64,000 nt of DNA from an uncultured Bacteroidota bacterium (GCA_937864815.1 CALMJY010000173.1:687-64686); one strand, 5' to 3'; shown: positions 1 to 29,164, counted from the first letter of the stretch. The notes: generated from the letters alone by a model not told the origin. A program made the numbers and translations.

Positions 1-165
1 TGAGTATTAGAATCTAGATTTAAATGTTTTAATTTTTAACTATTTAAATCATAACCAACAACTTGTATAGCGAAGTCAGCTTTCTCATTTCTAAGAGGAA
101 ATCTGTCAGGATTAACCCATCCAATAATTTCCTGGATACCAGAGTAGCTTAATTGACCTAATTTA

Positions 166-1238
166 ACGTGAGTTCGATATAAAGTTAAAAATATAAACCC
201 TTAGATTGATCGATTATTTCAAGATTAAGAGATGGCTTCTTAGGTAAATAGGAATAAGCGATTAGACCAGATAACAAGTTGATTATAAACCCTTCCTGAC
301 TTCTATGGCGAGTATGTTCTATTTGGCAAATATTTTTAAGTTCATCCAGAACCGACTCAATAAGGGCTCTTTTTCGGAGCAATATTTTGTCTGAAAGGAG
401 CATCAGGGAGTTTTTCATGTTCTTTCTCAGTTTTGTGATCAGATGGATCCCGTCTATGAAGAGCTTCTCAAATAGAGATTGTGATATGTATCCTTTATCT
501 CCAAAGAGCTTTCCATAGATCCTGGCTAATAGGTTAGTACCAAGAAGCGGTTGTCTGTCATCGACATTCCCGGGAGTGAGCATAAAGTCGAGTATCTCTC
601 CTTTGTCGTTGATGACAAAATGCAGTTTAAGCCCGAAGAACCATCCGATGCTGCACTGTCCCTTTGTGGCAAGGCCTTTTAAAACCTTATGTGAGTGAGC
701 CCGCTTAATATGACAAGCCTTAATATGGGAGGAGTCTACATAGGATATTCCAGTGCAATTACCCAGACAGCGTGTTTTAAGAAAAACAGCCATAGGTAAT
801 AAGACCTTTTGCATTAACTCAACAAACCGGTTATATGATACGAGTCCTGGAAAGTCACCATGCATATGTTCACAGACATGAAAAAGATAATAATGTTTGA
901 AGTCTCTGTAACGCATTAAATGAAAATAAATTACAATGGTCATTACCTCACTCTCATTTAAACTGCAAGGCTTGATCCGTTTCCGCGAACCATCTCCAAT
1001 CTGGTGTGTTCGTAACTCGTTGATGAATACATCGTTAAAATCATCAACATTACAAAATATTTCTATAAGTTTGTCTTTTAAATCATTCATGGATTCTTTC
1101 TGTTTTTGTTGGTTGGCACTACAAATTTGGAAAGAATCCTTTTTTATAACTCATTGTAAATCATATAGTTATTAACATAATGATATTAATTTGTTAATAA
1201 CCAGTGATTTATATAATATTGTTATGTCGAACTCACGT
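166..1238 (-). mobile_element. IS982-family insertion sequence (1073 bp)
   Basis: It has perfect 12-bp terminal inverted repeats, ACGTGAGTTCGA (166-177) and TCGAACTCACGT (1227-1238). A 7-bp direct repeat TAATTTA sits at 159-165 and 1239-1245. It contains one transposase ORF. Confidence 0.85.
185..1090 (-). CDS. IS982-family DDE transposase
   Basis: It is 301 aa. The N-terminus ..KLIEIFCNVDDFNDVF.. and the size are typical of IS982 transposases, and it is bounded by the TIRs above. Confidence 0.85.
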   Translation of the reverse strand: MNDLKDKLIEIFCNVDDFNDVFINELRTHQIGDGSRKRIKPCSLNESEVMTIVIYFHLMRYRDFKHYYLFHVCEHMHGDFPGLVSYNRFVELMQKVLLPMAVFLKTRCLGNCTGISYVDSSHIKACHIKRAHSHKVLKGLATKGQCSIGWFFGLKLHFVINDKGEILDFMLTPGNVDDRQPLLGTNLLARIYGKLFGDKGYISQSLFEKLFIDGIHLITKLRKNMKNSLMLLSDKILLRKRALIESVLDELKNICQIEHTRHRSQEGFIINLLSGLIAYSYLPKKPSLNLEIIDQSKGLYF

Positions 1239-2549
1239 TAATTTATAGTCAGGATTGTGGCATAAATTATGTATCCTAATCTCGATGTCATCATTTGAGT
1301 ACAGAAGATATTTTAATGATGATCTTATTTTTTCTATCTTATTGTCATGTACAAAAGAAATATCTGCATAAAACCTTTGCACTCTTTTTTCAGATGAATG
1401 TAGATTCTTATATACAACTCTAGCCTCTTCAATAGATAATGTGTCGATGTGCCTGGTCGAAAGTAGTTTAGAATAAATTTCTTTGGATCGTTTTGCCATA
1501 CGTAGGGTATGATTATATGTTGTTTTATCCCATTTACAGTATTCCAAAAACAGCTTAGGAATTTCCTTTTTCCTTTCATTTAAATTTAGTCTTGGTTTAT
1601 TTTCTTTAAACCAAACCGTCTTAATCCAGTGCCAAAAATGATCTATAGTAAGGTAAATAGGGACTCCTGGGTATTCTCGAGAAGAAATATCTTTTACAAT
1701 TTCTTTTACATCATCAATTTGGCGCCAGAAAATTAGATACTGTTTTGCTTTAGGATTGATTTTCTTCTTTTGTTGTAAGGTTCTATTACCTAGGACTTTC
1801 CTTTGAAAAACCTTTTGTTCTCCTTCAGATTGTTTTAGTCTATGCAACGCTTTTTCATATATGTGTTTATAATTTTCTAGGTCTATTGGTTGAAGGATGT
1901 ATGATTGATTGAATAAATGATTAAAGTGATCAACCATTTCGTCAAGTGTTTGCTGGTCTTCCAATAATACATTAGTTTCTATATTTTTAAAAAGTCCGCC
2001 AGATGTAAAGTTAGATGAACCTATTACACAGTATTTTGGTCTATTATTTCGGTAAAAGAGAATGAATTTTGAATGAAAGGAGTCACCTAGAAAATGAATG
2101 CTAATTCTTGATTTTATTTGAATACTTTTTAAAGAATAGTAATTTGTTGGTGGTCTTAATGAAACTATTAATTGTATGTTTTTCGATTGATCTGCCCAGC
2201 CGGAAATGATGTCTGAATCTGAGTAAAAAGCTGAAGCAATTTTTATAGAATCTGCATCTTCTCCTAATTTGAGCAGCAATTCTCTAAGGTTGTCATGCTC
2301 ATTATTGGTTTGTATCATATTGTAAAGATTATTTAAAAGGTTCTCAAGTGACCGTTAAAGTCCCACCAATTTGGGAAGGTTTTGTCACCCGACTTATATC
2401 TGTGCAAGAGCCTAGTATTTTAGTTTGAAAGCTGTAACGTTACAAGAAGAGTATGGCGCACATGTTGCCGATTTGATAGAGCATAACGACTGTCACTGTA
2501 TAATTTATCTAGGAGTTAGAAATCTGTCAATGCACAGGATTTAATTATT

Positions 2550-2657
2550 GGGCAGATGCGAATGTCCGAGTGCAACAACCATCACAAATTTGTCTTGAGA
2601 GCAGGAGCAAAGGCAAAAACCGTGACGAGCTTATGAATTATACCGTCCGTGTTAGCC
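2550..2657. repeat. Dispersed intergenic repeat, copy A (family with 7735..7822, 28548..28656 and the 3' part of 4480..4756)
   Basis: The core is GGGCAGA..GTCCGAGTGCAA..ACAAATTTGTCTTG..GCAGGAGCAAAGGCAAAAACCGTGACGAGC..CCGTCCGTGTTAGCC. In gene orientation it starts with GGCTAAC 7 nt after the DUF1848 stop codon. Confidence 0.8.
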
Positions 2658-2664
2658 ATAGCTT

Positions 2665-3591
2665 TTATTTAAATCTTAAATTACTTTGGAAGTAATCGTT
2701 TTTGTCTTTTATAATGCAATCCTTTGTGATCTGACCGGTTATCAAAGGCGATAAAGGATCATGTTTCAAAATGTTATTTTTTACAGCGGTTAGACTGTAA
2801 TTTGCATAACAATAGAGGCAATTATGACTGCAGGTGTTATATTCTCCAATATCTGTGCTTTCTATACAGCCACAAGCATTTCTTTGATATTTGTCTTTAC
2901 TTGCTTTTATTTTATAGCCAATAATTCTTTCAATCAAGTCTTGATCGACACAATGGCCATGTTCAAAACCGAAATCCATTAGGTCAATATCTTCAGAGCA
3001 GGTTTCAATTTTTAAGTCATAAAGTCCTGTAGCATTTTTAAACCCATGACTAAGTTCGATTATGTCATGATTATTGGGTACCCTTGCTTCAAGCGTCTTT
3101 ATATTCTTCTCACATTTTTTATATAAATCCAAAAAGCTGATTATGCATTTTTCAGTATAGGGGGATAATATTTCTGCTAAATGGTTGAAGTATTTTATAT
3201 GATATTTAATGTCCATTTTTCTTGTAAGGAAGATCGGATCATATCGCCAAATAACTTTACTTTTCCCGATCTTCTGAGATAATTCAATAAATGTTTTAAT
3301 AATCTGGACTTTTTTAGCAACTCTCAATTCAATTGATGAATCATAAGGATTTAAGGTAAATTGGAAATAATATTTATAGTCTTTTAATTCTTCGAGTCTG
3401 GATATTATATTTTTAGGATTTTTAGTCCAAAACACAATACAGTCTATTTTGTTTGGATTTAGATCTATACGTGAAAGTAGTTTACTGTTAAATGGATTTC
3501 TAACTAATACAAATTGCTCTTTTATTCTATTTAGAAACCAATCAGAATAAAAGGCAGGTATATCGGTTCTCCGGCTGGCGCTGATTATCAT
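2665..3591 (-). CDS. DUF1848-family protein with a C-terminal radical-SAM-like Cys cluster
   Basis: It starts MIISASRRTDIPAFYSDWF, the DUF1848 hallmark as I recall it. The C-terminus reads CGCIESTDIGEYNTCSHNCLYCYA and contains CX3CX2C. The likely start is 3591, overlapping the upstream stop as TAATG; the ORF track extends to 3636. Confidence 0.8.
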   Translation of the reverse strand: MIISASRRTDIPAFYSDWFLNRIKEQFVLVRNPFNSKLLSRIDLNPNKIDCIVFWTKNPKNIISRLEELKDYKYYFQFTLNPYDSSIELRVAKKVQIIKTFIELSQKIGKSKVIWRYDPIFLTRKMDIKYHIKYFNHLAEILSPYTEKCIISFLDLYKKCEKNIKTLEARVPNNHDIIELSHGFKNATGLYDLKIETCSEDIDLMDFGFEHGHCVDQDLIERIIGYKIKASKDKYQRNACGCIESTDIGEYNTCSHNCLYCYANYSLTAVKNNILKHDPLSPLITGQITKDCIIKDKNDYFQSNLRFK

Positions 3592-4454
3592 TATAATTTT
3601 TCTATAATAAGTTGTGCACTTGAACAGAATTGCCAAGGATTGAATTTACTTATTTTAGGATTGACTGTAAAAAGAATATTGTTTTTTGGATGTTGATTGT
3701 GATACCAAAAGTAATTACTTAAGCTATGAGCATAGTGATAGCTATATACGTTGACACTTGGTATTTCTTTAGCCATATTTCCTATATCACCATAGTGTGA
3801 TCTGGGATCAACATCTGATAGACCTCTATTGAAGTCATTTATTATTATATATGAATCTTTTGGTAATCTGTTAAGAATATTCTTTATCAGTAACTTTTTA
3901 AGATTGATTATATTTGAATTTGATCTTAAGAGTTCAGAAATCAAGTAACTGATTATCACAATATTTGGAGAATTGTTTTTGAAGAAGGAATCTGTATTGT
4001 CAAGGAATTCATATACATCTTTATATTTTACCTCAAAAGGATTTGATGTATTACTTTTTATCCAGTCATGAATAGGTCTCCAATCTTTATTTATTTCTAT
4101 TCCACAATATTTTATAGATTTTTTAGGATTCAGCTCTTTCTGTAGAGTATCAATTCCTATAAAATCAGGACATGATCCACATCCTAAGGATAAAATGTTT
4201 AATTCACTTAATCTTTTAAGATTGCTGTATTTGACTAATAAATACCAAATTTCGGACGAATATTTATATGTGTATTTGCAACTGTAGAAATACAAAATAT
4301 TTTGACAGTTATACCCGTTTTCTCTCTTCCCATAATGAATGTTCTCGAGACATTTTTCGCAATCACCAGTTTGTGGACATTGATTCTTACAATCTGAGCA
4401 GATTTTTGTTCTTGAATAATTACTGTTACAGTAATTTAGAAATTCATTTATCAT
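3591..4454 (-). CDS. Class I SAM-dependent methyltransferase-like protein with an N-terminal Cys-rich (Zn-ribbon-like) region
   Basis: It carries CSDCKNQCPQTGDCEKC and then a motif-I-like LNILSLGCGSCPDFIG. It is translationally coupled to the DUF1848 gene. Confidence 0.7.
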   Translation of the reverse strand: MINEFLNYCNSNYSRTKICSDCKNQCPQTGDCEKCLENIHYGKRENGYNCQNILYFYSCKYTYKYSSEIWYLLVKYSNLKRLSELNILSLGCGSCPDFIGIDTLQKELNPKKSIKYCGIEINKDWRPIHDWIKSNTSNPFEVKYKDVYEFLDNTDSFFKNNSPNIVIISYLISELLRSNSNIINLKKLLIKNILNRLPKDSYIIINDFNRGLSDVDPRSHYGDIGNMAKEIPSVNVYSYHYAHSLSNYFWYHNQHPKNNILFTVNPKISKFNPWQFCSSAQLIIEKL

Positions 4455-4479
4455 ATTGGTAGGTTTGTTTCAAGTTATG

Positions 4480-4756
4480 GCTAACGGCCAGCGGGTATGG
4501 GCAGTAAGTGTTACCTGACACAGCCAGCAGGCCACCAGTCCTGGTACTTTAACCGAAAAGTTGTCCCTGTGGCAAGGAAGGTATGGCGCAATTTTTGCAA
4601 ATCCCGGCGATAGATTTAATTGTCTCTTTAGCACGGATCTGTCCAGAGCCGAAATCACAAAGTTTGTAAACGAACGAGATTTATCTATCACTATAAAGTT
4701 GTCTAGGTGTAGTGCAAAAATTGTGACAAACTTATTGCCTATACCCGCTTGTTAGC
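4480..4756. repeat. Long imperfect hairpin element D (attC-like or REP-like)
   Basis: The ends are GCTAAC (4480-4485) and GTTAGC (4751-4756). A 19-bp stem pairs 4490-4508 with 4731-4749 and has two G:T pairs on the + strand. The element lies between the stop of 4784..5263 and the start of 3591..4454. Confidence 0.75.
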
Positions 4757-4783
4757 ACAAGTATATTGTTATCCATGAGATAC

Positions 4784-5263
4784 TTAAAAATTTACGATCC
4801 ATACAGAATAATCATCAAGCAGTTTATAATTTTTGGATCTTTTATTCGTAGACTTCAATTCACTTAGAGGGATTTGGAATCGTTTTTTATCAGTAACTCG
4901 TATTACGTCAACAATTAGTCCATCGTATTCGTCATATCGCTCACCAGTTTTTTCCAGAATAAAAGTATCAAGGTATGATGGATTTGATTTTTTTAGTTTT
5001 TCATACTCTTTTAGACTGCCAGGTCCCAGAAGGTAAAATTCTTCCCAACTGAAGTCCTCAATCCCAGTGAGCTCAATTGGGTAAGATAAATTCTGATCCA
5101 GATATTCTTTATAGATGGTAATAGTATCCAATCTTTTAGATAAGTCTTCAGTTTTATTCTGAAATACTGCTTCTATGCGTTTTTCTTGGTTTTTAAAATT
5201 TTTGTCCATTTTAATTGGGTCATTGTTAAAGTGCTGTAATTGGCTAAAATAGGAAAAAATCAT
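4784..5263 (-). CDS. Hypothetical protein (159 aa, acidic)
   Basis: It is a clean ORF co-oriented with its neighbours. I recognise no motif. Confidence 0.6.
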   Translation of the reverse strand: MIFSYFSQLQHFNNDPIKMDKNFKNQEKRIEAVFQNKTEDLSKRLDTITIYKEYLDQNLSYPIELTGIEDFSWEEFYLLGPGSLKEYEKLKKSNPSYLDTFILEKTGERYDEYDGLIVDVIRVTDKKRFQIPLSELKSTNKRSKNYKLLDDYSVWIVNF

Positions 5264-5272
5264 TTAAGAGTT

Positions 5273-5490
5273 GTTAGCACAAGTATTTGTTTGTCGTGCG
5301 ATGGCAAAGTCCCGGTAAACGGCAGTATAGTTATTTTGTTAACAGAATAAGATATATGGCGGCGGGTAGGCCAATTATCTTTCGTACGAGGGGCATGTCC
5401 AGATAAGGGGCAGAAATTATTTTATTAAAGTAGAACATATTAAAGACGGCGCGAAGGCTAATATTTTGTGTATGAAATATTTGTGCTAAC
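5273..5490. repeat. 16-bp inverted repeat pair enclosing ~186 nt of non-coding DNA
   Basis: GTTAGCACAAGTATTT (5273-5288) pairs with AAATATTTGTGCTAAC (5475-5490), with one G:T on the + strand. The right arm is shared with hairpin 5483..5614. Confidence 0.7.
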
Positions 5491-5614
5491 GTTGAGTGTA
5501 TGTGCCGTAAGGGGTTGCGGAGCAGTTTCCTGTCCACCGATACGAAAGTTTGAGCGGGATACAACGCTTGAATACCCACTAAAACCCTTATGGCATATAC
5601 ACTTTGTTGGGCAC
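5483..5614. repeat. Imperfect hairpin element R5 (attC-like, 132 nt)
   Basis: The ends are GTGCTAAC (5483-5490) and GTTGGGCAC (5606-5614). A 19-bp stem pairs 5495-5513 with 5585-5603 and has two G:T pairs. It is homologous to the stem of element D with compensatory changes. It lies 9 nt from the ABC permease stop codon. Confidence 0.75.
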
Positions 5615-5623
5615 ATGAGGTTT

Positions 5624-6790
5624 TTATGTTAGTTTTAAATGTCTTCGCTTGAAAATTATTCCTCCAATTATGAAATAAAAAATCGTTAAAACAATAATCG
5701 AAATGATTTCGGGAATTATACTCGACACATCCATATTCATTATCAATGTTTTGTTTAGCGCTGAAATGGCGTGTGTCGGGGTCATTAATCCTTGAATATT
5801 AACTGAATAACCTGCTATTGTAAACAAGGCCTCACTTTTTAACGGGAAAGCAGCACCGGTAAAAAACATAAATAAGAACATAGGAAAGTTACCAACAACC
5901 AAAACTTCATTGGATGATTTTGTTATGGCTGCAATTATCAGACTAAAAGAAATAATTGACAAACTGGTTAAGCTGGCGATTAAAATCATAATTACAAATG
6001 AACCTTCATACTTAAAACCAAGCATAATCGCTGTAAGCAAAGTCAATAAAACCGAGATAACCCCAACTAGTAACTGAACAGAACTTATTCCTGCCAAAAA
6101 CTGAAAAACACTCAACTTTGAAAGTTTCAACCGCATAATGGTTTTGTTTTCAACTTCTGATACAAATGCAATACTTGCTGTAAACATTAACATTATTAAT
6201 GATACAATAAGAATACCCGGCACCATCATATCGAAACCACTTGCTGTTGCCGAAGTTCCTAATGCCGTTTCTTTCAGATTGACTATTCTTTTGTTATTAG
6301 TTATTTGCAATGCGTATTCATTTACTATTTCGTTTGCCCAAACGGCACTAATCAAATAATTTGTATTAGACAAATCACCGATAAATTCAACATTAACAAG
6401 CGAAGTACTGTCTGAAAGTTTTCGGTTTAGCAACGATTGAGAAAAAACAGTATCAATAATTATCAAAGCATCGGCTTTTTTGTTTTTCAATCTCTCAATA
6501 CCTTCTGTCCTGTTTGATGCTTCATGTACTGTAAATGGGAAAACAACACTATCTGTTTTGAAATTTTTAAAATATCCTATCAATTCATTACCGTAGTTTA
6601 TAGTTTGTCCCTTAACAAAAGCTCCTTTGTCACTATTGGCAATCAAAACTGTATATTGAGGTTTTGATGTTTCCGTTATCAGAAAATAAACGAAAATAAA
6701 AAATGGCCCCATTGATAATGAAAGCAAAAGTACCCAATAGCTTCTGATTTGCTCTTTCAGACTTTTTAAAATTATGCTAATTGTTTTCAT
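5624..6790 (-). CDS. ABC-2 type transporter permease
   Basis: It is 388 aa with an N-terminal TM segment, a large extracytoplasmic loop and a C-terminal cluster of TM segments. It overlaps the ATPase gene by 4 nt. Confidence 0.8.
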   Translation of the reverse strand: MKTISIILKSLKEQIRSYWVLLLSLSMGPFFIFVYFLITETSKPQYTVLIANSDKGAFVKGQTINYGNELIGYFKNFKTDSVVFPFTVHEASNRTEGIERLKNKKADALIIIDTVFSQSLLNRKLSDSTSLVNVEFIGDLSNTNYLISAVWANEIVNEYALQITNNKRIVNLKETALGTSATASGFDMMVPGILIVSLIMLMFTASIAFVSEVENKTIMRLKLSKLSVFQFLAGISSVQLLVGVISVLLTLLTAIMLGFKYEGSFVIMILIASLTSLSIISFSLIIAAITKSSNEVLVVGNFPMFLFMFFTGAAFPLKSEALFTIAGYSVNIQGLMTPTHAISALNKTLIMNMDVSSIIPEIISIIVLTIFYFIIGGIIFKRRHLKLT

Positions 6791-7716
6791 TGCCTTAAAT
6801 TTCTGCCAGTTAAATGAATGAATACATCTTCGAGTGTATTTTCCCGAAGTTTTATTTCTGCGATTTTTAGTCCGCTTTTTTCAGCAATGTTTTTTATTGC
6901 AGGCAATTGTTCAATGATATTTGAATGTTTGATAAATATAGTATCTTCATTGATTTTGATATTCATATCAAGTAGCTGAATACTATCTGAAAAAATCTTA
7001 GTTGAGTTTTCATTGTTGCTTTCAATTACTAATTCAAGAATATCGCCTTCGCCCACAGTTCGTTTAAGGTTTTGAGGAGTATCTAACAAGAGTAATTTTC
7101 CATGGTCTATAATAGCAACCCTGTCAGATAACCTTTCGGCTTCGTCCATGTTATGTGTTGTAAGAATTACTGTCTTTTGTATGCTGTATGTTTTTATAAA
7201 GTCACGGACCAGAATTCTGCTTTGCGGGTCTAATCCGGCTTCGGGCTCATCTAAAATAAGAATTTCGGGGTCATGAATTAGTGCAAGGCAAATGTTAAGT
7301 CTACGTTTCATTCCCCCAGATAAATTACTTGCTCTTACATGAGTTTTATCAGCCAAACCAAAAAGATTTAGCAATTCAATGGCTCTCATTTTAACTGACT
7401 TTGAAGGCAAACCATACATTTGTCCCATAAATAGCAATTGTTCCAAACAAGTCAATTTTGGGTAGAAGATGTTTTCCTGCGGGCAATAACCAATTATAGA
7501 CTTTTTGTCTTTACCATTGCAATTAGCAAAAGTGATTTCCCCTTCTGTAATTGGCAATAGTCCACAAATCATTAAGATTGTTGTTGTTTTACCTGCTCCA
7601 TTTGGACCCAAAAGTCCAAATATTTTATTTCGGTTAATGTCGAAACTTATCCCATCAACGGCTATAAATTCGTCATATTTTTTTTTAAGTCGTTCTATTT
7701 TAATCAATGTTTCCAT
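6787..7716 (-). CDS. ABC transporter ATP-binding protein
   Basis: It has Walker A GPNGAGKTT, signature LSGGMKRRL and Walker B ILILDEP. Confidence 0.93.
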   Translation of the reverse strand: METLIKIERLKKKYDEFIAVDGISFDINRNKIFGLLGPNGAGKTTTILMICGLLPITEGEITFANCNGKDKKSIIGYCPQENIFYPKLTCLEQLLFMGQMYGLPSKSVKMRAIELLNLFGLADKTHVRASNLSGGMKRRLNICLALIHDPEILILDEPEAGLDPQSRILVRDFIKTYSIQKTVILTTHNMDEAERLSDRVAIIDHGKLLLLDTPQNLKRTVGEGDILELVIESNNENSTKIFSDSIQLLDMNIKINEDTIFIKHSNIIEQLPAIKNIAEKSGLKIAEIKLRENTLEDVFIHLTGRNLRQ

Positions 7717-7734
7717 TAATAATTATTCGTTTAT

Positions 7735-7822
7735 GTGCAACACCCATTATAAATTTGTCTTGTGTGCAGGAGCAAAAGCAAAAAGTGTGACAAGCTTATT
7801 AACCCTACCGTCCGTGTTAGTG
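7735..7822. repeat. Dispersed intergenic repeat, copy B
   Basis: The core is GTGCAACACCCATTATAAATTTGTCTTGTGTGCAGGAGCAAAAGCAAAAAGTGTGACAAGCTTATT..CCGTCCGTGTTAGTG. It ends ~18 nt from the ABC ATPase start codon. Confidence 0.8.
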
Positions 7823-8020
7823 TTAATGATTCTATTTTTTTCTTGGTTTGAAGTCTTGTTAATTTGTTAACAGTCACCGTATTGTCTATTTGCAAGCTCT
7901 TTAAAAAGCTTTGGTTGTGCATCAGCCTATGAGGCTTTTAAATGTGCATGCAAATAGTAGATTTCTTTTAGTTTGGAAAGGTCTCGCTATGGGAAATCCT
8001 CTCATTGTCAGAAATAAATT

Positions 8021-10960
8021 TTATTGCAAATATTCAGATATTACCGAGATCAGCTTTTTCCTGTCGAATGGTTTTGAAATGAATCCCGAACAACCTGATC
8101 CAATTGCCTTTTCCCTGTCATCCGCAAAAGCTGTCTGGGCTATTATCGGTACTTTGATTCCTGCTTCGCGAATCAGTCTGGTTGCCGTATACCCATCCAT
8201 CTCAGGCATTTTAATATCCATGAGTATAAGATCTATATCCTTCCTGCTCAAAGCAAGGTTAAGAGCTTCTTTCCCATTTGAAGCTCTGTGGACTTTAATA
8301 TTTGTGGATGATAGGAGATAGGCTATCAGTTTAAAATTACTGTCAATATCCTCTGCCACCAGGATATTCTTTGTTTCGGGAAATACATAATCCGGTTTCA
8401 TTGATTCAACGGTTACGGGGACTGACTTTTCTACCGATTTTTCAAATGGGATTGTAAAAAAGAATGTGGCGCCATTTCCCTGCTCTGAGGATAACCATAT
8501 TCTGCCTCCGAGGAGTTCAACATAGGCTTTGGATATGGCAAGTCCAAGTCCGGTCCCTTCGTATGTTCTTGATTCACTGTATTGTATCTGATAGAATCTG
8601 TCAAATATCCGCTCATGATACTCTTTTGGGATACCAATTCCGGTATCCGACACGCTGAATTCAAGAAATTTATCGGTTTTCCTGCAGGAAATAGTCACAG
8701 AACCTGAAATGGTAAACTTAAACGCATTATTTAGCAGGTTTAAAATAATCTGTTTTAGTTTTGTTGAATCAATCATTACTTTAGAATCAGTTACTGAGAG
8801 TCGGGACTCGCAAACCAGGGTGATTCTTTTTTCTCTTGCTTTCGGTAACAGCTGATTACAAAGATTATTCAACAAGAGATTTATGTCGGTCTCGGTTTTA
8901 TGGATTTTTACCAGGTTGGCTTCAATGTTCGATATATCAACAATATCGGAAATAATTTCCAGCAGGTGGTTGCTGCTTTGAATAATAGTCTCAATATGAG
9001 ATTGCCGTGTCTGTGAGTCCAGTACTGGTTCTCCAAGCATTGATGCAAACCCCACAATTGCATTCATAGGAGTTCTGATTTCATGGGAGATATTATGCAA
9101 AAAGGCAGTTTTCAGCCTGTCGCTTTCCTCAGCTTTTTCCTTTGCTTTTATCAATTCATATTCATACTCTTTTCTTTCTGAGATATCACGCATACTGCCG
9201 ATTATCTTTTCTGGTTTGCCCTCGTCATCCAGAATAACTTTAGATGATATGGAACAGGGGACCAAAGAGCAATCTTTATTATTAAGTAAGATTTCAAAAT
9301 CAGTGACATAGCCTTCCCTTTTCAACTTAGTAAGCAATGAATGTCTTGTACTCTGATCATGATAGAAATCAGACATATATCTTCCGATCAGATCATTTCT
9401 GCTGTACTGGCCCTTTGACAGGAGAGTTATGGATGGACTTACATCCATTATTATTCCATCGAAAGTAGTCTCAAAGTACAGGTCCGTTACATTATCGAAA
9501 ATCTGATGATATTTCTTTTCGTTTTCTCTTATTTTCTTCTCAGTAATGTAACGGTCAGTAATATCACGAGCCGATGAAAGAGCACCGGTAGTTTTGTCAT
9601 GTGTATCCCTGAGCACACGCCACCACCACGTAAGGAGCTTCTCTTCACCATCATGTCGTCGTTGCCAGCTATCAAAATTAAGTTCATTCTTTGTCCCGTT
9701 AAAAATTGGCTGGAAAAGCTTATAAGTATCCTGCTCACCAACAAAAAAGGATTCAGCACTCTTCCCCACAACATCGTTGCCGAAGAATTCAAGACCTGAT
9801 TTATTGGCCCAGGTAAATATTTTATCATTATCGACTTCCATAATTATATTAGGAATGGATGAAAGAATAACCTCCTGACGGTAAAGAAGATTCTTTATCT
9901 TTTCTTCTGCCTGTCTGCGCTCGGTTATATCTTCAAAGGTAGTGTAGACCTGGTAAGGTTTGCTCTCTCCTGACCTGAACAGAGGAATAGCATTGATATT
10001 TATCCAGGTGTAGCCGTCGAGCAATGGATTAAAAATTCCCATCACCACATTGTGAACCTCTCTTCCTGTGGAAAGTGCCTCGATGGAAGGATGCTTGTTC
10101 CCAGGAAAATCAGAGCCATCATCATGGATGGATTTCCAGCGGGGATCCATGGAAGTTCTTCCCTGCATCTGATCGAATGTCAGACCCAGGATTCGTTCAG
10201 CAGCCGGATTAGCTGAGAAGATATGCCCGTCAGCATTCTGATATACAACACCTTGAACCATTGTTTCAAACATCCTGCGGAGCTTTTCCTCGCTTGACGT
10301 GAGCTTTTCAGCAATCTCGTTACTCAGCCTGATCTTATCTTTAAGATCAGATGTACGATCTTCAACGATTGATTCGAGCTTTTCATTTAAAAGCCTGAGT
10401 TCCTCCTGCGTTCTGATCAGCTTTTCATTCTGCTGTATTGCACCTTCATAAATATTCACCAGCAGATTAATAATTTTGTGCTGCTCAGTTTGTATGGACC
10501 TTTTCTTCCCCTTAAACAATATTTTAGTGTCGAAAGGCACTTTACCCCCATTTTTAATATCACCCCCTGACAGGAACTTGCTTATCTGCGACAAGAGGTA
10601 CCTCTCGTTGTAAGGCTTGGTAATGAAGCTGTCGGCGCCGCATGAAAGACCTTTTAAAATCTCCTCCGGATCAGACAGCCCGGTAAGTAGAATTACGTGA
10701 ATATTTTCAGTTCTTTTATCCGACTTGATTTTATTGCATAGTTCATATCCATCCATTTCAGGCATAACGATATCAGAGATAATGATAGACGTCAGTCTTT
10801 CAGAAATAATGCTTAGAGCCTTCTTTCCATTCGCGGCAACCGCTACTTTGTAATTATTATTCTCAAGCAGATATTTTAGCTGAGCTGCCTGGGTAGGGCT
10901 GTCCTCGGCAATAAGGATGTCAGTCTTTGCCGACTTGGTTTTATGCACCTGCCTTTTCAT
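8021..10960 (-). CDS. Hybrid sensor histidine kinase/response regulator (REC-coiled coil-PAS x3-HisKA-HATPase-REC)
   Basis: It has an N-terminal REC (DILIAEDSP..DIVMPEMDGY), H-box FLHNISHEIRTPMNAI, G-box GTGLGLAISK and a C-terminal REC (LMDIKMPEMDGY). Confidence 0.9.
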   Translation of the reverse strand: MKRQVHKTKSAKTDILIAEDSPTQAAQLKYLLENNNYKVAVAANGKKALSIISERLTSIIISDIVMPEMDGYELCNKIKSDKRTENIHVILLTGLSDPEEILKGLSCGADSFITKPYNERYLLSQISKFLSGGDIKNGGKVPFDTKILFKGKKRSIQTEQHKIINLLVNIYEGAIQQNEKLIRTQEELRLLNEKLESIVEDRTSDLKDKIRLSNEIAEKLTSSEEKLRRMFETMVQGVVYQNADGHIFSANPAAERILGLTFDQMQGRTSMDPRWKSIHDDGSDFPGNKHPSIEALSTGREVHNVVMGIFNPLLDGYTWININAIPLFRSGESKPYQVYTTFEDITERRQAEEKIKNLLYRQEVILSSIPNIIMEVDNDKIFTWANKSGLEFFGNDVVGKSAESFFVGEQDTYKLFQPIFNGTKNELNFDSWQRRHDGEEKLLTWWWRVLRDTHDKTTGALSSARDITDRYITEKKIRENEKKYHQIFDNVTDLYFETTFDGIIMDVSPSITLLSKGQYSRNDLIGRYMSDFYHDQSTRHSLLTKLKREGYVTDFEILLNNKDCSLVPCSISSKVILDDEGKPEKIIGSMRDISERKEYEYELIKAKEKAEESDRLKTAFLHNISHEIRTPMNAIVGFASMLGEPVLDSQTRQSHIETIIQSSNHLLEIISDIVDISNIEANLVKIHKTETDINLLLNNLCNQLLPKAREKRITLVCESRLSVTDSKVMIDSTKLKQIILNLLNNAFKFTISGSVTISCRKTDKFLEFSVSDTGIGIPKEYHERIFDRFYQIQYSESRTYEGTGLGLAISKAYVELLGGRIWLSSEQGNGATFFFTIPFEKSVEKSVPVTVESMKPDYVFPETKNILVAEDIDSNFKLIAYLLSSTNIKVHRASNGKEALNLALSRKDIDLILMDIKMPEMDGYTATRLIREAGIKVPIIAQTAFADDREKAIGSGCSGFISKPFDRKKLISVISEYLQ

Positions 10961-10965
10961 ATGAA

Positions 10966-12171
10966 TTACAATTTCAATCCAACCACAGTTATATCATCAA
11001 CCTGTTCTTCATTTCCTTTCCAGTCATTTAAAGCATCCAGTAAAAGCTGCTTTTGAGTTTCCAGTGGATTTTTATGTGATCTGATAAGCAGTTCCCTGAA
11101 TCGACAGGAACCAAGTTTCTTCATATCCTGTCCTCCAAACTGATCCTTGTATCCGTCGGTAAACATGTAAATGATGTCATCCGGATGTAATATCATTTTC
11201 TGGAGTGAAAAATCAGACAGATTTTCACTATATGCTAAAGACTTTTTATCTCCTTTCAATTCAATAATATCGTTGTTCCGCAGGATAAAAACAGGATTGA
11301 ATGCTCCGGAATACACCAGGGTTTTATTATTCAGATCATAACTTATTATTGCACCGTCCATCCCATCTTTAACCTCAAAGCATTCACCTTTTTGTCCCAG
11401 GGCTTCAATGATTTTTTCTCTTAACCGCTTAAGTATCAGGGGAGGTTCAACAATTTCTTCTCTTATTACTGTCTCATTTAACAAAGTTATTCCCAGGATA
11501 CTCATGAATGCACCGGGAATACCATGACCAGTGCAATCAAAAACACCTGCCAATATTTTCCTGCCGGTGTTATGAAACCAGTAAAAATCGCCGCTGACTA
11601 TATTTCTCGACAGGAATAGGAAGAATTGTTCTTTAAAAACAGCAGAACCATTCTGAGACGCCTTAATCACGGCTGACTGAATTGTCTGTGCATATTGAAT
11701 GCTGTATGTTATAAGTTTGTTTTTATATTCAATATCTTCGAGGTTTTTTGCTATCTCATCTCTGTTTCTCTTGAGTTCAATTTGTGTCCGTACCCTGGCT
11801 AACAGCTCTTTCTGGTTAAATGGCTTTGTGATATAGTCAACAGCGCCTGAATCAAATCCCTTTACAATACTTTCCGTATCGGTTTTAGCCGTAAGGAATA
11901 TTATCGGGATTTTCTGTTTTACGGGAACACTTTTTATTATTTTACATACATCATAACCATCTCTTCCCGGCATCATTATATCGAGAAGAATCAGATCGAA
12001 TTCCATTCTTTCAACCCATTTAAGAGCTGAATCACCTTCCAAAGCAAATTCAACATGGTAACCTTCATTTTGCAGATAATTGCCCAGAATCTGAAGGTTT
12101 TTCGGATTATCATCTACAATCAGGATAGAAGTTTCTACTGCTGTGCCATTATGTTTATCAGGCAATATCAT
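10966..12171 (-). CDS. Response regulator with SpoIIE/PP2C-type phosphatase output (RsbU-like)
   Basis: It has REC (ILIVDDNP..LDIMMPGRDGY..TKPF) followed by GDFYWF..DCTGHGIPGAFMS..TDGYKDQ..DDITVVGLKL. Confidence 0.9.
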   Translation of the reverse strand: MILPDKHNGTAVETSILIVDDNPKNLQILGNYLQNEGYHVEFALEGDSALKWVERMEFDLILLDIMMPGRDGYDVCKIIKSVPVKQKIPIIFLTAKTDTESIVKGFDSGAVDYITKPFNQKELLARVRTQIELKRNRDEIAKNLEDIEYKNKLITYSIQYAQTIQSAVIKASQNGSAVFKEQFFLFLSRNIVSGDFYWFHNTGRKILAGVFDCTGHGIPGAFMSILGITLLNETVIREEIVEPPLILKRLREKIIEALGQKGECFEVKDGMDGAIISYDLNNKTLVYSGAFNPVFILRNNDIIELKGDKKSLAYSENLSDFSLQKMILHPDDIIYMFTDGYKDQFGGQDMKKLGSCRFRELLIRSHKNPLETQKQLLLDALNDWKGNEEQVDDITVVGLKL

Positions 12172-27967: not shown

Positions 27968-28547
27968 GGTGACCTTCTTTTTATTGCAGTAAAATAAACT
28001 TGAATTTTATTGCGCCTGTTAGCTCAAGATTATGTACCAAATGTGATAATCGATAGAAATGAATGCTTTAATTCAATTTGTTAGTTTGCGTACTTTTAAA
28101 AAATGTTCATGGTCATTTTCATCTTATCAGCTAAAGAGTTTAACACCCGGGATATTCCCGGATAAAGAGGATTCAACAACAAATTCTATGAGCAACGCAT
28201 CTATGCTTTAACAAAATTAAAAAAAATAGCGAATTTTCCTAATTATGAATCACTTGTGTCCTACTAGACCTATGCGAAGACATTTGGCTATAGCTTTTGC
28301 CTGAGGGCTGGATTTAGTATTGGGCATAGGTCAATGTGCCAAATCAGCGGTCGTGGTTTAATGTTTGAGGAGAGCAGAAAACATGTCAGCGTATTGTTAT
28401 TTTGTTAACAGCACTGGTGCAGTCTAGTCCCGGCGAACGGAGTGAGTCGGGAGTCGCGCCGAAGGCCCTGACCGAAGCGAAGCGAGCGTCATGGGGTACA
28501 AGTTTAAGCGGAGCCAGGAATCAGTCAAGGTATAGGATTTAAATTGC

Positions 28548-28656
28548 GGGCAGAGGAGCGTGTCCGGGTGCAAGAACTATTACAAATTTGTCTTGGATGC
28601 AGGAGCTAAAGCAAAAAGTGTGACAAGCAACTTACCCATATTGTCCGTGTTAGCGG
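28548..28656. repeat. Dispersed intergenic repeat, copy C
   Basis: The core is GGGCAGAGGAGCGTGTCCGGGTGCAAG..ACAAATTTGTCTTGGATGCAGGAGCTAAAGCAAAAAGTGTGACAAGC..TTGTCCGTGTTAGCGG. It lies ~15 nt from the stop of 28672..28917. Confidence 0.8.
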
Positions 28657-28671
28657 CCGATTTTTTATTAT

Positions 28672-28917
28672 TCACTTATCAAGCTTTTTCCATTCACCTG
28701 AATTATACCTTCTAATTATTTCTTTTGCTACATCGTTTGAAAATTGTTGAATTCCAGAAGATGATCTTTTCCCTTCCAGCCTGCATTTTGGACATGTAGC
28801 CATTTGAGCGATATTATTATGTTCCATCGGAGATTCACATACAGGACATAACGGCACAACATTTTTAATATTGAATTTTCCTGTTAACAAATCATAATCG
28901 TAGTCCCAAGTCCACAT
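28672..28917 (-). CDS. Hypothetical small Zn-ribbon protein (81 aa)
   Basis: It has two CxxC pairs (CPVC, CPKC). I recognise no family. Confidence 0.5.
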   Translation of the reverse strand: MWTWDYDYDLLTGKFNIKNVVPLCPVCESPMEHNNIAQMATCPKCRLEGKRSSSGIQQFSNDVAKEIIRRYNSGEWKKLDK

Positions 28918-29164
28918 CGAATCGTTAATGCCAAACTTATCAACTCGAAGCTTATATCTGTGCAGAAATATATCAGGGCTACGGCAATTCTTATACGCCG
29001 TTTCTCAATCATGGAGATGGGTTATCCGGGACCCGGCTCAGAGTATAATGACATTTAGTTTAAGACGAAGTTGCAAATATACTACTAATGGGTCAATACA
29101 TCACATTGTTCTTTTTGCCAACGTCAGTATAAATTGAGAATAACACAAATCCGATTTCATAATT

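What the first reader, a model, noticed from the sequence alone, without database searches (positions are those of the whole stretch)
1239..4454. Cys-rich SAM methyltransferase + DUF1848 (CX3CX2C) + HKD nuclease: candidate uncharacterised modification/restriction-like module
Seen in sequence:
- The 287-aa protein has a Zn-ribbon-like CSDCKNQCPQTGDCEKC and a SAM motif I, LSLGCGSCPD.
- Its stop overlaps the start of the DUF1848 gene (TAATG at 3589-3593), so the two are translationally coupled.
- The DUF1848 protein ends with CSHNCLYC, which fits the radical-SAM CX3CX2C spacing.
- About 350 nt downstream, on the same strand, lies a single-HKD nuclease-family gene, now IS-disrupted.

Established knowledge: HKD/PLD-fold nucleases occur as restriction and defence effectors. 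Methyltransferase plus nuclease is the logic of R-M systems. DUF1848 has no assigned function that I know of.

Inference: this may be a three-gene nucleic-acid modification plus nuclease island in which the Fe-S/SAM-like DUF1848 and the MTase make or read a modification. Its setting fits an accessory or defence role: attC-like hairpins on one side, an IS on the other, and lower GC.
Basis: partly seen in the sequence, partly recalled or inferred. Interest (0 to 1): 0.7.

Follow-up and report, generated by a model that had tools for sequence, protein, structure and literature searches.

The report
Methyltransferase–DUF1848 gene pair, unrelated broken nuclease
The region holds a real, widely conserved but uncharacterised two-gene unit (a zinc-finger methyltransferase coupled to an iron-sulfur DUF1848 enzyme) that travels on mobile and defence islands of anaerobes, while the neighbouring nuclease gene is an unrelated stand-alone gene broken by an insertion sequence.

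Summary
These are a 287-aa Cys-rich SAM methyltransferase (MTase), a TAATG stop/start overlap with a 308-aa DUF1848 gene carrying CX3CX2C, an HKD gene 346 nt downstream cut by IS982, and low GC.

The three-gene "modification plus nuclease" reading fails. None of the other 41 dereplicated MTase–DUF1848 pairs has an HKD neighbour, and HKD homologues, including an intact 92%-identical one, sit elsewhere without the pair.

The real unit is the MTase–DUF1848 pair:
- DUF1848 follows the MTase in 75 of 75 informative MTase-seeded loci.
- Spacing is −11 to +15 nt, and the two are fused once.
- The reverse does not hold. About 80% of DUF1848 genes are solitary, in ordinary contexts, which argues against restriction-modification logic.
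- The MTase has no canonical DNA-MTase motifs.
- DUF1848 has seven conserved Cys residues and a TIM-barrel-like model. Radical-SAM membership is unresolved.

Pairs sit beside type I and III R-M, GmrSD, Mrr, integrases and transposases, and on four viral contigs.

The closest known relative is the UG25 reverse-transcriptase system (MTase-RT fusion plus DUF1848), but no RT is present here.

My best reading is a mobile two-enzyme nucleic-acid modification module of unknown chemistry.

The parts
3591..4454 (-). Stand-alone class I SAM-methyltransferase, 287 aa. It has an N-terminal six-Cys zinc-finger-like segment (residues 19-50) and motif I GCGSC (residues 91-95).
   Evidence: ORF. It has no Pfam or NCBIfam hit. 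It matches PADLOC PDLC01079 'C3a159 methyl transferase' at 7e-20. The AF2 model (pLDDT 81) has a Rossmann MTase fold, and the top 50 of 174 PDB matches at E<=1e-3 are SAM-dependent MTases. Conserved residues are listed. An exhaustive search found 781 family representatives.
2665..3591 (-). DUF1848 protein, 308 aa. It is a predicted TIM-barrel-like Fe-S enzyme with CX3CX2C (C254/C258/C261) plus four further conserved Cys residues.
   Evidence: PF08902 at 4.7e-105. PADLOC 'RTasDUF1848' at 2.5e-46. More than 8000 homologues. AF2 model with pLDDT 83. Foldseek gives only weak TIM-barrel and radical-SAM matches.
3589..3593 (-). TAATG stop/start overlap that couples the MTase and DUF1848.
   Evidence: Sequence. 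The same tight spacing (-11 to +15 nt, with one fusion) is seen in 42 dereplicated pairs.
4455..4783 (-). Roughly 330-nt structured intergenic repeat upstream of the pair. It is the probable promoter-bearing or boundary element of this transcription unit.
   Evidence: Homologous to 2319-2664. Long hairpin with arms at 4490-4509 and 4730-4749. Folding z = -3.45. GC 42.9%.
2319..2664 (-). Second full copy of the intergenic repeat, separating DUF1848 from the HKD gene.
   Evidence: nhmmer hit at 2.6e-94, with partial copies at 7734-7816 and 28510-28655.
1233..2318 (-). HKD (PLD-family, NgoFVII-like N-terminal domain) nuclease gene, 5' part. It is not part of the pair. Its last codons and its stop lie in the IS982 inverted repeat.
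   Evidence: PF13091 at 1.2e-10 and PF09565 at 4.4e-7. Intact homologues are about 403 aa. Homologue loci lack the MTase and DUF1848.
159..1245 (-). IS982-family insertion sequence (transposase 1090..185) inserted into the 3' end of the HKD gene.
   Evidence: NF033520 at 255.6 bits against a cutoff of 130. 24-nt inverted repeats, 92% complementary. Single copy in the window.
36..158 (-). Displaced 3' remnant of the HKD gene (40 codons plus the stop).
   Evidence: Open frame GQLSYSG...DLNS*. Joining it to the 5' part gives a 400-aa protein with 100% coverage of 401-404-aa homologues; P0281 is 92% identical.

Best explanation
The region contains two independent things.

(A) A self-contained, horizontally mobile two-gene module.
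- The first gene encodes a SAM-dependent class I methyltransferase with an N-terminal Cys6 zinc-finger-like segment.
- It is translationally coupled to DUF1848. DUF1848 is a TIM-barrel-like enzyme that probably carries Fe-S clusters: one on an invariant C-terminal CX3CX2C, and a second metal site on four more invariant Cys residues.
- I propose that the two proteins act as a complex on a nucleic acid. DUF1848 would do the core Fe-S or radical-type step, which it can also do alone in most genomes. The MTase would add a methyl group to the DUF1848 substrate or product.
- On mobile elements and defence islands this would serve as an epigenetic or self-marking (or anti-restriction) modification, rather than as a classical restriction-modification pair.

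(B) A stand-alone HKD/PLD-family nuclease gene of a separate family of about 403 aa, inactivated here by an IS982 insertion. It only happens to be a neighbour.

Shown:
- The two-gene unit, its coupling and one natural fusion.
- The asymmetry of dependence between the two genes.
- The independence of the HKD gene and its disruption.
- The folds and the conserved Cys residues.
- The mobile and defence contexts.

Inferred:
- Metal binding.
- Complex formation.
- A nucleic-acid substrate.
- The order of the two steps.
- The biological role.
For: Unit:
- In 84 MTase-seeded loci, DUF1848 sequence lies directly downstream in all 75 that have enough DNA to tell.
- 42 dereplicated pairs have spacing of -11 to +15 nt, 18 overlap, and L016 is a 608-aa fusion.
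- The MTase is the only recurrent tight neighbour in 80 DUF1848-seeded genome loci. It lies directly upstream in 16 of them, counting the L016 fusion and one 122-aa remnant, and as a helicase fusion downstream in one more.

HKD independence:
- No recurrent third gene was found, and HKD appears in none of the other 41 pairs.
- HKD homologue loci L091-L097 lack the pair.
- The HKD gene has its own copy of the repeat upstream.
- The IS disruption is proven.

Enzymology:
- The MTase model has a Rossmann MTase fold. G91, G93, E68, Y170, N206 and D207 are invariant in 71 sequences.
- DUF1848 has seven Cys residues at least 97% conserved and a TIM-barrel-like model.
- Its C-terminal motif aligns with the N-terminal cluster motif of an SplB-like radical SAM protein (hhalign P = 1.5e-4).
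- Hosts are almost all anaerobes.

Nucleic-acid link:
- The MTase domain is alternatively fused to an SF1, MkoA-like helicase (L072).
- It is also fused to an RnlA-toxin-like N-terminal domain (P0036, 26.3 bits).
- According to PMC9226505, it is fused to the UG25 reverse transcriptase, which is itself linked to DUF1848.
- PADLOC holds RT-associated models for both proteins.

Context:
- Neighbours include type I R-M with GmrSD, a type III REase, GmrSD, Mrr-M78, a C5-MTase with a UvrD-Cas4-like protein, a GajB-like helicase, integrases, resolvases and transposases.
- Four IMG/VR contigs carry the pair beside serine integrases and repressors.
- GC is 28-30% against 39% for the window.
Against: - No biochemical or genetic datum exists for either family.
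- The MTase lacks canonical DNA-MTase motifs in all 71 members checked. It has no close structural relative (best TM about 0.45-0.5). The substrate could therefore be RNA, a nucleotide, a small molecule or a protein.
- DUF1848 has no PF04055 hit and no significant structural match (no Foldseek hit at E<=1e-3). Its Cys motif is at the wrong end for a canonical radical SAM enzyme. A circularly permuted alignment did not score better.
- About 80% of close DUF1848 genes are solitary, with metabolic or regulatory neighbours. Paired and solitary DUF1848 proteins are intermixed in an NJ tree. A housekeeping role is therefore possible.
- Some pairs have purely housekeeping neighbours such as GH43, polysaccharide synthase and GMP synthase.
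- Neither protein matches a PHROG family. The MTase has no match in PLSDB plasmids.
Confidence: 0.5

Rival explanations
1. One reading: a three-gene R-M-like island. The MTase and DUF1848 would make or read a modification, and the HKD nuclease would be the restriction effector.
For: The genes are adjacent on one strand. HKD/PLD nucleases are known restriction and defence effectors, and PADLOC gives weak DrmC and REase_II hits. A nuclease-type gene follows the pair in a few other loci: Mrr-M78 in L007 and GmrSD in L047.
Against: No HKD gene is present in the other 41 dereplicated pairs, and no third family recurs in more than two loci. The 92%-identical intact HKD and more distant homologues have no MTase or DUF1848 nearby. 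A 346-nt spacer carrying a separate repeat copy lies between the units. The MTase is never an orphan while DUF1848 usually is, which is the opposite of R-M behaviour. The MTase has no DNA-MTase motifs.
Confidence: 0.05
2. A damage-and-reversal (toxin/antidote-like) pair. The MTase would be an effector that puts harmful methyl lesions on DNA or RNA. DUF1848 would be an oxygen-independent Fe-S repair or demethylating enzyme that most anaerobes keep as a housekeeping gene.
For: The dependence is asymmetric: the MTase always comes with DUF1848, while DUF1848 is mostly alone in ordinary contexts. Some sources label DUF1848 'DNA repair photolyase'. The MTase is fused to toxin-like RnlA and helicase domains. 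In the aerobic cyanobacterium Planktothrix agardhii, a distant MTase-family gene sits in one operon with the oxidative demethylase AlkB, convergent on DUF1848. Hosts are otherwise anaerobes, where AlkB cannot work.
Against: The AlkB link is a single locus. A natural MTase-DUF1848 fusion (L016) and the gene order, with the MTase first, are unusual for a toxin-antidote pair. L181 keeps an intact MTase beside a truncated DUF1848. No demethylase chemistry is known for this fold.
Confidence: 0.15
3. A housekeeping RNA (tRNA or rRNA) or cofactor modification pathway with no role in genetic conflict. DUF1848 would carry out the core step and the MTase would be an optional tailoring enzyme.
For: DUF1848 is very conserved, at 55-60% identity across phyla. 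It is mostly solitary among metabolic and regulatory genes. Paired and solitary forms are intermixed. The MTase resembles small-molecule and RNA MTases as much as DNA MTases.
Against: The distribution is patchy and the GC content is foreign. Pairs repeatedly lie beside R-M, GmrSD, integrases and transposases and on viral contigs. There are fusions to helicase, RnlA-like and (from the literature) RT domains. PADLOC holds RT-associated models for both proteins.
Confidence: 0.15
4. A viperin-like small-molecule system. DUF1848 (radical-SAM-like) and the MTase would convert a nucleotide into a modified antiviral or signalling molecule.
For: The candidate radical-SAM features and the defence-island contexts fit. 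The MTase has no DNA-MTase motifs, and small-molecule MTases are among its best fold matches.
Against: The MTase has a zinc-finger-like N-terminus with a weak CXXC resemblance. Its fusions to helicase and RT domains point to polymeric nucleic acid. DUF1848 shows no similarity to viperins.
Confidence: 0.07
5. A degenerate remnant of a UG25-type reverse-transcriptase defence system that has lost its RT.
For: Both proteins hit RT-associated PADLOC models. UG25 is an MTase-RT fusion plus DUF1848.
Against: The stand-alone MTase of about 290 aa is the dominant form: 781 representatives, with no RT-sized protein among the best 150. The window protein is full-length with all invariant residues. No recurrent RT-like neighbour was found in 42 pairs. 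More likely, UG25 recruited this pair.
Confidence: 0.03

Closest known systems
UG25 group of UG/Abi reverse transcriptases (Mestre et al. 2022, PMC9226505): an MTase-RT fusion associated with a DUF1848 gene
   Same: Both show the same association of a methyltransferase domain with a DUF1848 protein. The window proteins hit the PADLOC models derived for RT-associated genes: RTasDUF1848 at 2.5e-46 and C3a159 methyl transferase at 7e-20. Function is unknown in both; that paper rated the defence prediction for UG25 as inconclusive.
   Different: There is no reverse transcriptase or alpha-Rep domain here, nor as a recurrent neighbour in the other dereplicated pairs. The MTase is a stand-alone 287-aa protein, and the gene order is MTase then DUF1848 with a stop/start overlap. 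I could not obtain a UG25 sequence, so the homology of its MTase domain to this family was not tested directly.
Radical SAM enzymes of the SplB / 'DNA repair photolyase' type, and non-canonical radical SAM enzymes with a C-terminal cluster such as ThiC (my own knowledge)
   Same: CX3CX2C is invariant. The extended motif YNTCxHxCxYCYA resembles NLYRGCSHGCIYC of an SplB-like protein. The model has a (beta/alpha) barrel-like fold. The hosts are anaerobes. Some sources name the family 'DNA repair photolyase'.
   Different: The motif is C-terminal, not after beta-1. There is no PF04055 hit, no PDB sequence match and no Foldseek hit at E<=1e-3. SAM cleavage has not been tested.
Type II restriction-modification systems with PLD-family endonucleases (NgoFVII, BfiI)
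   Same: An MTase gene and a PLD/HKD nuclease gene lie within 2.2 kb on one strand. The HKD N-terminal domain matches the RE_NgoFVII model.
   Different: The nuclease and the MTase do not co-occur elsewhere. The MTase lacks DNA-MTase motifs. The nuclease belongs to a stand-alone family of about 403 aa with an uncharacterised C-terminal domain of roughly 260 aa.
Mokosh-type helicase defence proteins (MkoA/MkoC)
   Same: In one relative (L072), the MTase domain is fused to an SF1 helicase that matches MkoA and MkoC at about 1e-34 and lies next to DUF1848.
   Different: This is a single locus. The window has no helicase.

Membership tests
Class I (Rossmann-fold) SAM-dependent methyltransferases | Glycine-rich motif I loop after beta-1 and an acidic residue at the end of beta-2 | tested here: met
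   GCGSC lies at residues 91-95. G91 and G93 are invariant in 71 sequences. E or D is present at position 120 in 11 of 11 sequences.
Class I (Rossmann-fold) SAM-dependent methyltransferases | Seven-stranded Rossmann-like fold | tested here: met
   The AF2 model has pLDDT 81 with seven strands. Foldseek gives 174 PDB matches at E<=1e-3, and the 50 listed are SAM-dependent MTases. TM scores are only 0.4-0.5.
Class I (Rossmann-fold) SAM-dependent methyltransferases | Match to a curated MTase profile (Pfam or NCBIfam) | tested here: not met
   The window protein has no Pfam or NCBIfam hit at E<=0.01. Relatives give only weak hits, for example Methyltransf_31 at 1.3e-5 in P0130.
DNA methyltransferase of a restriction-modification system | Catalytic motif IV (D/N/S)PP(Y/F/W), or the PCQ/ENV motifs of C5 MTases | tested here: not met
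   The motif is absent from the window protein and from all 71 family members checked.
DNA methyltransferase of a restriction-modification system | A cognate nuclease that is co-conserved with the MTase | tested here: not met
   HKD is present in none of the other 41 dereplicated pairs. HKD homologue loci lack the MTase.
DUF1848 (PF08902) | Full-length match above the Pfam gathering score | tested here: met
   351.6 bits against a cutoff of 30.5, covering profile positions 1-262 of 262.
Radical SAM superfamily | CX3CX2C motif able to bind a [4Fe-4S] cluster | tested here: met
   C254, C258 and C261 are at least 97% conserved in 106 sequences. Metal binding itself cannot be tested here.
Radical SAM superfamily | Cluster loop after beta-1 near the N-terminus, and a match to PF04055 | tested here: not met
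   The motif lies at residues 254-261 of 308, and there is no PF04055 hit.
Radical SAM superfamily | Partial TIM-barrel fold similar to solved radical SAM enzymes, allowing for circular permutation | tested here: inconclusive
   The model is TIM-barrel-like, but the best PDB E-value is 2.4e-3. DesII and Elp3 appear only at E of about 0.03, and viral radical SAM proteins only weakly. hhalign against an SplB-like protein gives 52% probability and P = 1.5e-4 on the Cys motif, and permutation does not improve the score.
Radical SAM superfamily | Reductive cleavage of SAM to a 5'-deoxyadenosyl radical | not testable with these tools
   This needs anaerobic biochemistry.
UG25 / DRT-type reverse-transcriptase system | Reverse transcriptase domain in the system | tested here: not met
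   No RT is present among the window genes: the neighbours are HKD, IS982, orf159 and an ABC transporter. No recurrent large neighbour was found in 42 pairs.
UG25 / DRT-type reverse-transcriptase system | A methyltransferase domain together with a DUF1848 partner | tested here: met
   The proteins hit PADLOC C3a159 at 7e-20 and RTasDUF1848 at 2.5e-46.
PLD/HKD-family nuclease (NgoFVII-like) | PLDc_2 domain with the HxK catalytic motif and GSxN | tested here: met
   PF13091 at 41.8 bits against a cutoff of 27. HSK is at residues 82-84 and GSSN at residue 100.
PLD/HKD-family nuclease (NgoFVII-like) | Intact full-length gene | tested here: not met
   IS982 displaces the last 40 codons. Homologues are 401-404 aa, against a 361-aa ORF here.
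DISARM (DrmC) | Match above the NCBIfam cutoff, with DrmA, DrmB and DrmM partners present | tested here: not met
   NF038319 scores 24.9 bits against a cutoff of 133. No Drm partner genes are present in the flanks.
Integron gene cassette array (attC sites) | attC of about 57-141 nt (my own knowledge) with paired R''/R' cores at the 3' end of each cassette, plus an integron integrase | tested here: inconclusive
   The copy at 4455-4783 has paired GCTAAC...GTTAGC ends and 20-nt arms but spans about 265 nt. The copy at 2319-2664 lacks the pairing. Other copies lie upstream of ordinary operons. phmmer with two tyrosine recombinases found no match in the window. No attC covariance model was available.
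IS982 family insertion sequence | IS982 DDE transposase flanked by terminal inverted repeats | tested here: met
   NF033520 at 255.6 bits against a cutoff of 130. 24-nt inverted repeats at 159-182 and 1222-1245.

The most novel reading that the evidence does not exclude
The MTase-DUF1848 pair is a previously unrecognised, oxygen-independent system for writing a methyl-based mark or lesion on DNA or RNA and processing or erasing it. DUF1848 would be a circularly permuted, radical-SAM-like Fe-S enzyme that acts as the anaerobic functional counterpart of AlkB-type repair. Mobile elements and RT or helicase defence systems would have recruited the MTase-DUF1848 pair as an effector/immunity or self-marking module.
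Probability: 0.15. Interest if true: 0.85.

Novelty: new variant of a known kind. Interest (0 to 1): 0.5.

Why it matters
DUF1848 is a very large family that is still uncharacterised. It has more than 8000 clusters at 90% identity and is common in gut Bacteroidales and Clostridia.

This analysis gives it its one obligate-looking partner: a distinctive zinc-finger methyltransferase with 781 clusters at 50% identity. It also shows a clear genetic asymmetry between the two genes.

It links the pair to mobile and defence contexts, and to RT, helicase and RNase-like fusions.

Together these turn "function unknown" into concrete experiments: a search for modified nucleosides, Fe-S and SAM-cleavage assays, and a test of whether the MTase is toxic when expressed alone.

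If the chemistry is new, it would add an anaerobe-specific nucleic-acid modification or repair route. It would also explain the accessory genes of the UG25 reverse-transcriptase system.

The analysis also removes a false lead, namely the HKD nuclease as part of the system.

Tried and rejected
- Sequence searches of both proteins and both family profiles against PDB chains gave nothing significant. There was only an E of about 4 resemblance between the MTase N-terminus and the KMT2A CXXC finger, which I kept as a lead only.
- Rfam on 1-12000 found nothing relevant.
- PHROGs gave no family for any of the four island proteins.
- NCBIfam gave nothing for the MTase or DUF1848.
- The metagenome scan with the 71-sequence alignment failed for lack of a conserved stretch. 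I repeated it with the 11-sequence alignment.
- The supplements of PMC9226505 are not held, so no UG25 sequences could be obtained. The direct comparison with the UG25 MTase domain is therefore missing.
- The apparent 607-aa 'fusion' in L041 is an ORF-calling artefact; its N-terminal part looks like a membrane protein and does not hit the MTase profile.
- The co-evolution (Mantel) test of MTase against DUF1848 distances was weak (r = 0.30, with 68 of 2000 permutations at least as high). The identity measure was also unreliable, so I did not use the result.
- The circular-permutation hhalign test did not raise the score above that of the Cys motif alone.
- The sigma-70 promoter and terminator scan was uninformative.
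- I considered the DISARM DrmC reading of the HKD gene and rejected it, because it scores far below the cutoff.
- I considered the integron-cassette reading of the repeats, but it remains unproven.

Full report
**1. What is in the sequence**

All relevant genes are on the minus strand.
- The 287-aa ORF at 4454..3591 carries CSDCKNQCPQTGDCEKC (residues 19-35) and LSLGCGSCPD (88-97).
- Its TAA (3593-3591) overlaps the ATG (3591-3589) of a 308-aa ORF at 3591..2665, giving TAATG.
- That second ORF is a full-length DUF1848 protein: PF08902, 351.6 bits against a cutoff of 30.5. It has CSHNCLYC at residues 254-261.
- After a 346-nt spacer comes a 361-aa ORF at 2318..1233 with an N-terminal PLDc_2/NgoFVII-type HKD domain. 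HSK is at residue 82 and GSSN at residue 100.
- An IS982 element lies at 159-1245. Its transposase is at 1090..185 and matches NF033520 at 255.6 bits.
- The HKD frame resumes at 158..36. The rejoined 400-aa protein aligns end to end with homologues of 401-404 aa, one of them 92% identical. The IS disruption is therefore real.
- GC content is 28.0% (MTase), 30.4% (DUF1848) and 30.9% (HKD), against 39.3% for the window.

**2. The real unit is a two-gene pair**

A word-indexed search found only 11 MTase homologues. An exhaustive profile search found many more: 781 representatives at 50% identity with E<=1e-3. Of these, 202 have E<=1e-30, and nearly all are stand-alone proteins of about 290 aa.
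- Every context I looked up by MTase has DUF1848 immediately downstream.
- I collected 84 further MTase-seeded loci, 4 from IMG/VR viral contigs and 80 from metagenome contigs. DUF1848 sequence follows on the same strand in all 75 that have enough downstream DNA. One of these (L181) has only a 28-aa fragment.
- After dereplication at 90% MTase identity, 42 pairs remain. The spacing from MTase stop to DUF1848 start is -11 to +15 nt in all of them, 18 overlap, and L016 is a true 608-aa MTase-DUF1848 fusion.

**3. The dependence is one-sided**

DUF1848 is a huge and strongly conserved family. More than 8000 clusters were found, with 55-60% identity across Bacteroidota, Bacillota, Desulfobacterota, Verrucomicrobiota and an archaeon. 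The hosts are almost all anaerobes.
- Among the 80 closest genome loci, the MTase family lies directly upstream of DUF1848 in 16. This count includes the L016 fusion and one 122-aa remnant.
- In one further locus it appears as the C-terminal part of an 1118-aa SF1 helicase just downstream (L072).
- It is the only neighbour family that recurs; all other tight neighbours are singletons.
- The 62 solitary DUF1848 genes mostly have metabolic or regulatory neighbours, such as glycoside hydrolases, dehydrogenases and PAS sensors. Only occasional defence genes appear, such as JetA and SLFN_AlbA_2.
- Paired and solitary DUF1848 proteins are intermixed in a neighbour-joining tree. The nearest neighbour has the same status in 77 of 103 cases.

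So the MTase needs DUF1848, but DUF1848 does not need the MTase. This is the opposite of restriction-modification behaviour, where MTases are the common orphans.

**4. The HKD gene is not part of the unit**
- Across the 42 dereplicated pairs, no third gene family recurs in more than two loci, and those are related elements. None of the other 41 pairs has an HKD gene.
- The intact 92%-identical HKD homologue (L091-L094) and more distant homologues (L095-L097) have no MTase or DUF1848 nearby.
- In the window, the HKD gene is preceded by its own copy of a roughly 330-nt repeat that also precedes the MTase. This argues for separate transcription units.
- Nuclease-type genes do follow the pair in some loci: Mrr_cat-M78 in L007 and GmrSD in L047. 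These are different families each time, as expected for defence-island neighbours.

**5. What the proteins look like**

MTase:
- The AF2 model (pLDDT 81) has a seven-stranded Rossmann fold. It has 174 PDB matches at E<=1e-3, and the 50 best listed are SAM-dependent MTases. The best TM scores are only 0.4-0.5, and the hits span small-molecule, RNA-cap and DNA MTases.
- There is no Pfam or NCBIfam hit.
- Across 71 diverse members, C50, Y57, E68, G91, G93, W125, Y170, N206 and D207 are invariant. C19, C22, C26, C32 and C35 are at least 90% conserved.
- The family has neither (D/N/S)PP(Y/F/W) nor PCQ/ENV in any of 71 members. It is therefore not a canonical DNA N6/N4 or C5 MTase.
- The Cys-rich N-terminus has low model confidence and a non-significant resemblance (E of about 4) to the CXXC zinc finger of KMT2A. 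I treat this as a lead only.

DUF1848:
- Seven Cys residues are at least 97% conserved in 106 sequences: C198, C214, C240, C242, C254, C258 and C261. That is enough for a CX3CX2C cluster plus a second four-Cys site.
- The AF2 model (pLDDT 83) is a beta/alpha barrel.
- Foldseek gives no hit at E<=1e-3. The weak hits are TIM barrels and include the radical SAM enzymes DesII and Elp3 and several viral radical SAM proteins.
- There is no PDB sequence match.
- An SplB-like 'radical SAM protein' that happens to lie near solitary DUF1848 genes (L183, L079, L087) aligns its N-terminal NLYRGCSHGCIYC with the C-terminal GxYNTCxHxCxYCYAN of DUF1848. Its residues 127-178 align with DUF1848 residues 71-120.
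- That order fits a circular permutation, but hhalign gives only 52% probability (P = 1.5e-4), and permuting the alignment does not raise the score.

Radical-SAM membership is therefore unresolved.

**6. Context and fusions**
- Dereplicated pairs lie beside type I R-M with GmrSD and an IetA-like ATPase (L001, L105).
- One follows a type III REase (L042), and one is followed by GmrSD (L047).
- Others lie near a C5-MTase with a UvrD-Cas4-like protein (L161) or a GajB-like helicase with mad2 (L062).
- Others lie near Mrr-M78, HipA and Fic (L007), or ThiF, M78 and integrases (L003). Integrases, resolvases, transposases, HTH_3 and GNAT genes also appear nearby.
- Some pairs have housekeeping neighbours: GH43, a polysaccharide synthase and GMP synthase.
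- On the four viral contigs the pair sits among serine integrases, transposases and repressors.
- One uncultured gut phage record also carries the pair. No PLSDB plasmid has the MTase.
- The MTase domain occurs fused to an MkoA-like SF1 helicase (L072).
- It also occurs fused to an N-terminal RnlA-toxin-like domain in forms of about 476 aa. This hit scores 26.3 bits against a cutoff of 27, so it is sub-threshold. One such form is on a viral contig (L098).
- The literature held here mentions DUF1848 only three times. The relevant paper, PMC9226505, reports that UG25 reverse transcriptases carry an N-terminal MTase and are associated with a DUF1848 gene, with an inconclusive defence prediction.
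- PADLOC holds the corresponding models, and both window proteins hit them: C3a159 at 7e-20 and RTasDUF1848 at 2.5e-46.

**7. The flanking repeats**
- The spacers at 4455-4783 and 2319-2664 are homologous. Their GC is host-like at 40-43%.
- Their 5' module recurs at 7734-7816, just upstream of the ABC transporter operon, and at 28510-28655.
- The copy upstream of the MTase forms a long imperfect palindrome (GCTAAC...GTTAGC with 20-nt arms, z = -3.45).
- They are much longer than typical attC sites, and I found no tyrosine recombinase in the window with a limited test.
- I regard them as a dispersed intergenic repeat that possibly carries a promoter. A link to a cassette array is not excluded.

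**8. Mechanism**

Best reading, at confidence about 0.5 overall: about 0.9 for the architecture and about 0.35-0.4 for the biochemistry.
- The pair is a mobile two-enzyme module acting on a nucleic acid.
- DUF1848 would perform a core Fe-S or radical-type step that it can also perform alone.
- The zinc-finger MTase would methylate the substrate or the product of that step.
- On mobile elements this would act as a mark or as protection.

Rivals:
- A damage-and-reversal pair, with the MTase as effector and DUF1848 as an anaerobic repair enzyme (0.15). It is supported by the one-sided dependence and by one Planktothrix plasmid locus, where AlkB and a distant MTase-family gene form an operon convergent on DUF1848.
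- A housekeeping RNA or cofactor modification with an optional tailoring MTase (0.15).
- Viperin-like small-molecule chemistry (0.07).
- An RT-less remnant of UG25 (0.03).

**9. Novelty and verdict**

The MTase-DUF1848 association was already noted once, for UG25. The abundant stand-alone, RT-less pair, its near-obligate coupling, the one-sided dependence and its fusions are not described in the literature I could search. I rate it a new variant of a known (but functionally unknown) kind. The three-gene module is not a real unit, and the HKD gene is an ordinary IS-disrupted stand-alone nuclease gene. Interest is moderate at 0.5: a well-defined, testable candidate with no functional evidence yet.

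Noticed in passing
window 2319-2664, 4455-4783, 7734-7816, 28510-28655 (minus strand): A dispersed intergenic repeat family. Two copies are full-length at about 330 nt and two carry only the roughly 85-145-nt 5' module. GC is host-like at 40-43%, and the copies sit between low-GC genes. The copy at 4455-4783 folds into a long imperfect palindrome, GCTAAC...GTTAGC (z = -3.45). It could be a promoter-bearing repeat or a cassette-boundary element. It was not shown to be attC.
   Followed up: partly
window 4749-4764, 5271-5286, 5477-5492: The 159-aa ORF at 4784-5263 has only a weak CcbP C-terminal hit (23.2 bits). It is flanked by identical 16-nt direct repeats, ATACTTGTGCTAACAA, with an inverted 13/16 copy 186 nt further upstream. 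This looks like a small cassette or mobile-unit boundary.
   Followed up: partly
L182 (Planktothrix agardhii plasmid p1, NZ_LR882935.1) 5001-7547: In an aerobic cyanobacterium, an AlkB dioxygenase gene is followed 16 nt later by a 292-aa distant member of the MTase family (E of about 1e-10, no zinc finger). This operon converges on a DUF1848 gene. It is a single locus, but it suggests a methylation/demethylation relationship.
   Followed up: partly
L016 7101-8927; L072 4116-7472; P0036 and L098 6434-7864: The MTase domain occurs in three alternative architectures. One is a fusion to DUF1848 (608 aa). One is the C-terminal part of an MkoA-like SF1 helicase (1118 aa) just downstream of DUF1848. 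One carries an N-terminal extension of about 190 aa with a sub-threshold RnlA_toxin hit (476 aa), and one such form lies on an IMG/VR contig.
   Followed up: partly
L012, L013, L018 (DUF1848 genes of about 450 aa): Some Bacteroidales and Prevotella DUF1848 proteins carry a conserved C-terminal extension of about 140 aa with no Pfam or PADLOC match.
   Followed up: no
L183 8123-8989; L079 9864-10793; L087 12203-13174: An SplB-like 'radical SAM protein' lies within a few kb of solitary DUF1848 genes in three Lachnospiraceae loci. Its N-terminal cluster motif resembles the C-terminal motif of DUF1848, which hints at circular permutation.
   Followed up: partly
L183 (Roseburia plasmid NZ_CP135163.1) 3322-5942: A macro-domain protein-ADP-ribose hydrolase gene and a Sir2-family gene lie directly upstream of DUF1848 (28-nt gap) on a 243-kb plasmid.
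   Followed up: no
window MTase residues 14-55 (about 4290-4415): The Cys-rich N-terminus (CxxCxxxCx5CxxC...H...C) aligns with the CXXC zinc finger of KMT2A/MLL, a CpG-DNA-binding domain. The alignment is not significant (E of about 4).
   Followed up: partly
window 27968-30865: A roughly 2.9-kb stretch contains only small ORFs (no more than 126 aa) and one copy of the intergenic repeat.
   Followed up: no
HKD family (P0281-P0400; window 1233-2318 plus 36-158): The HKD protein belongs to a well-populated family of about 403 aa. Its C-terminal region of about 260 aa has no Pfam match, and its neighbourhoods vary (IS21, DUF4062, Endonuc_Holl, HigB). It appears to be a stand-alone nuclease of unknown role.
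   Followed up: partly
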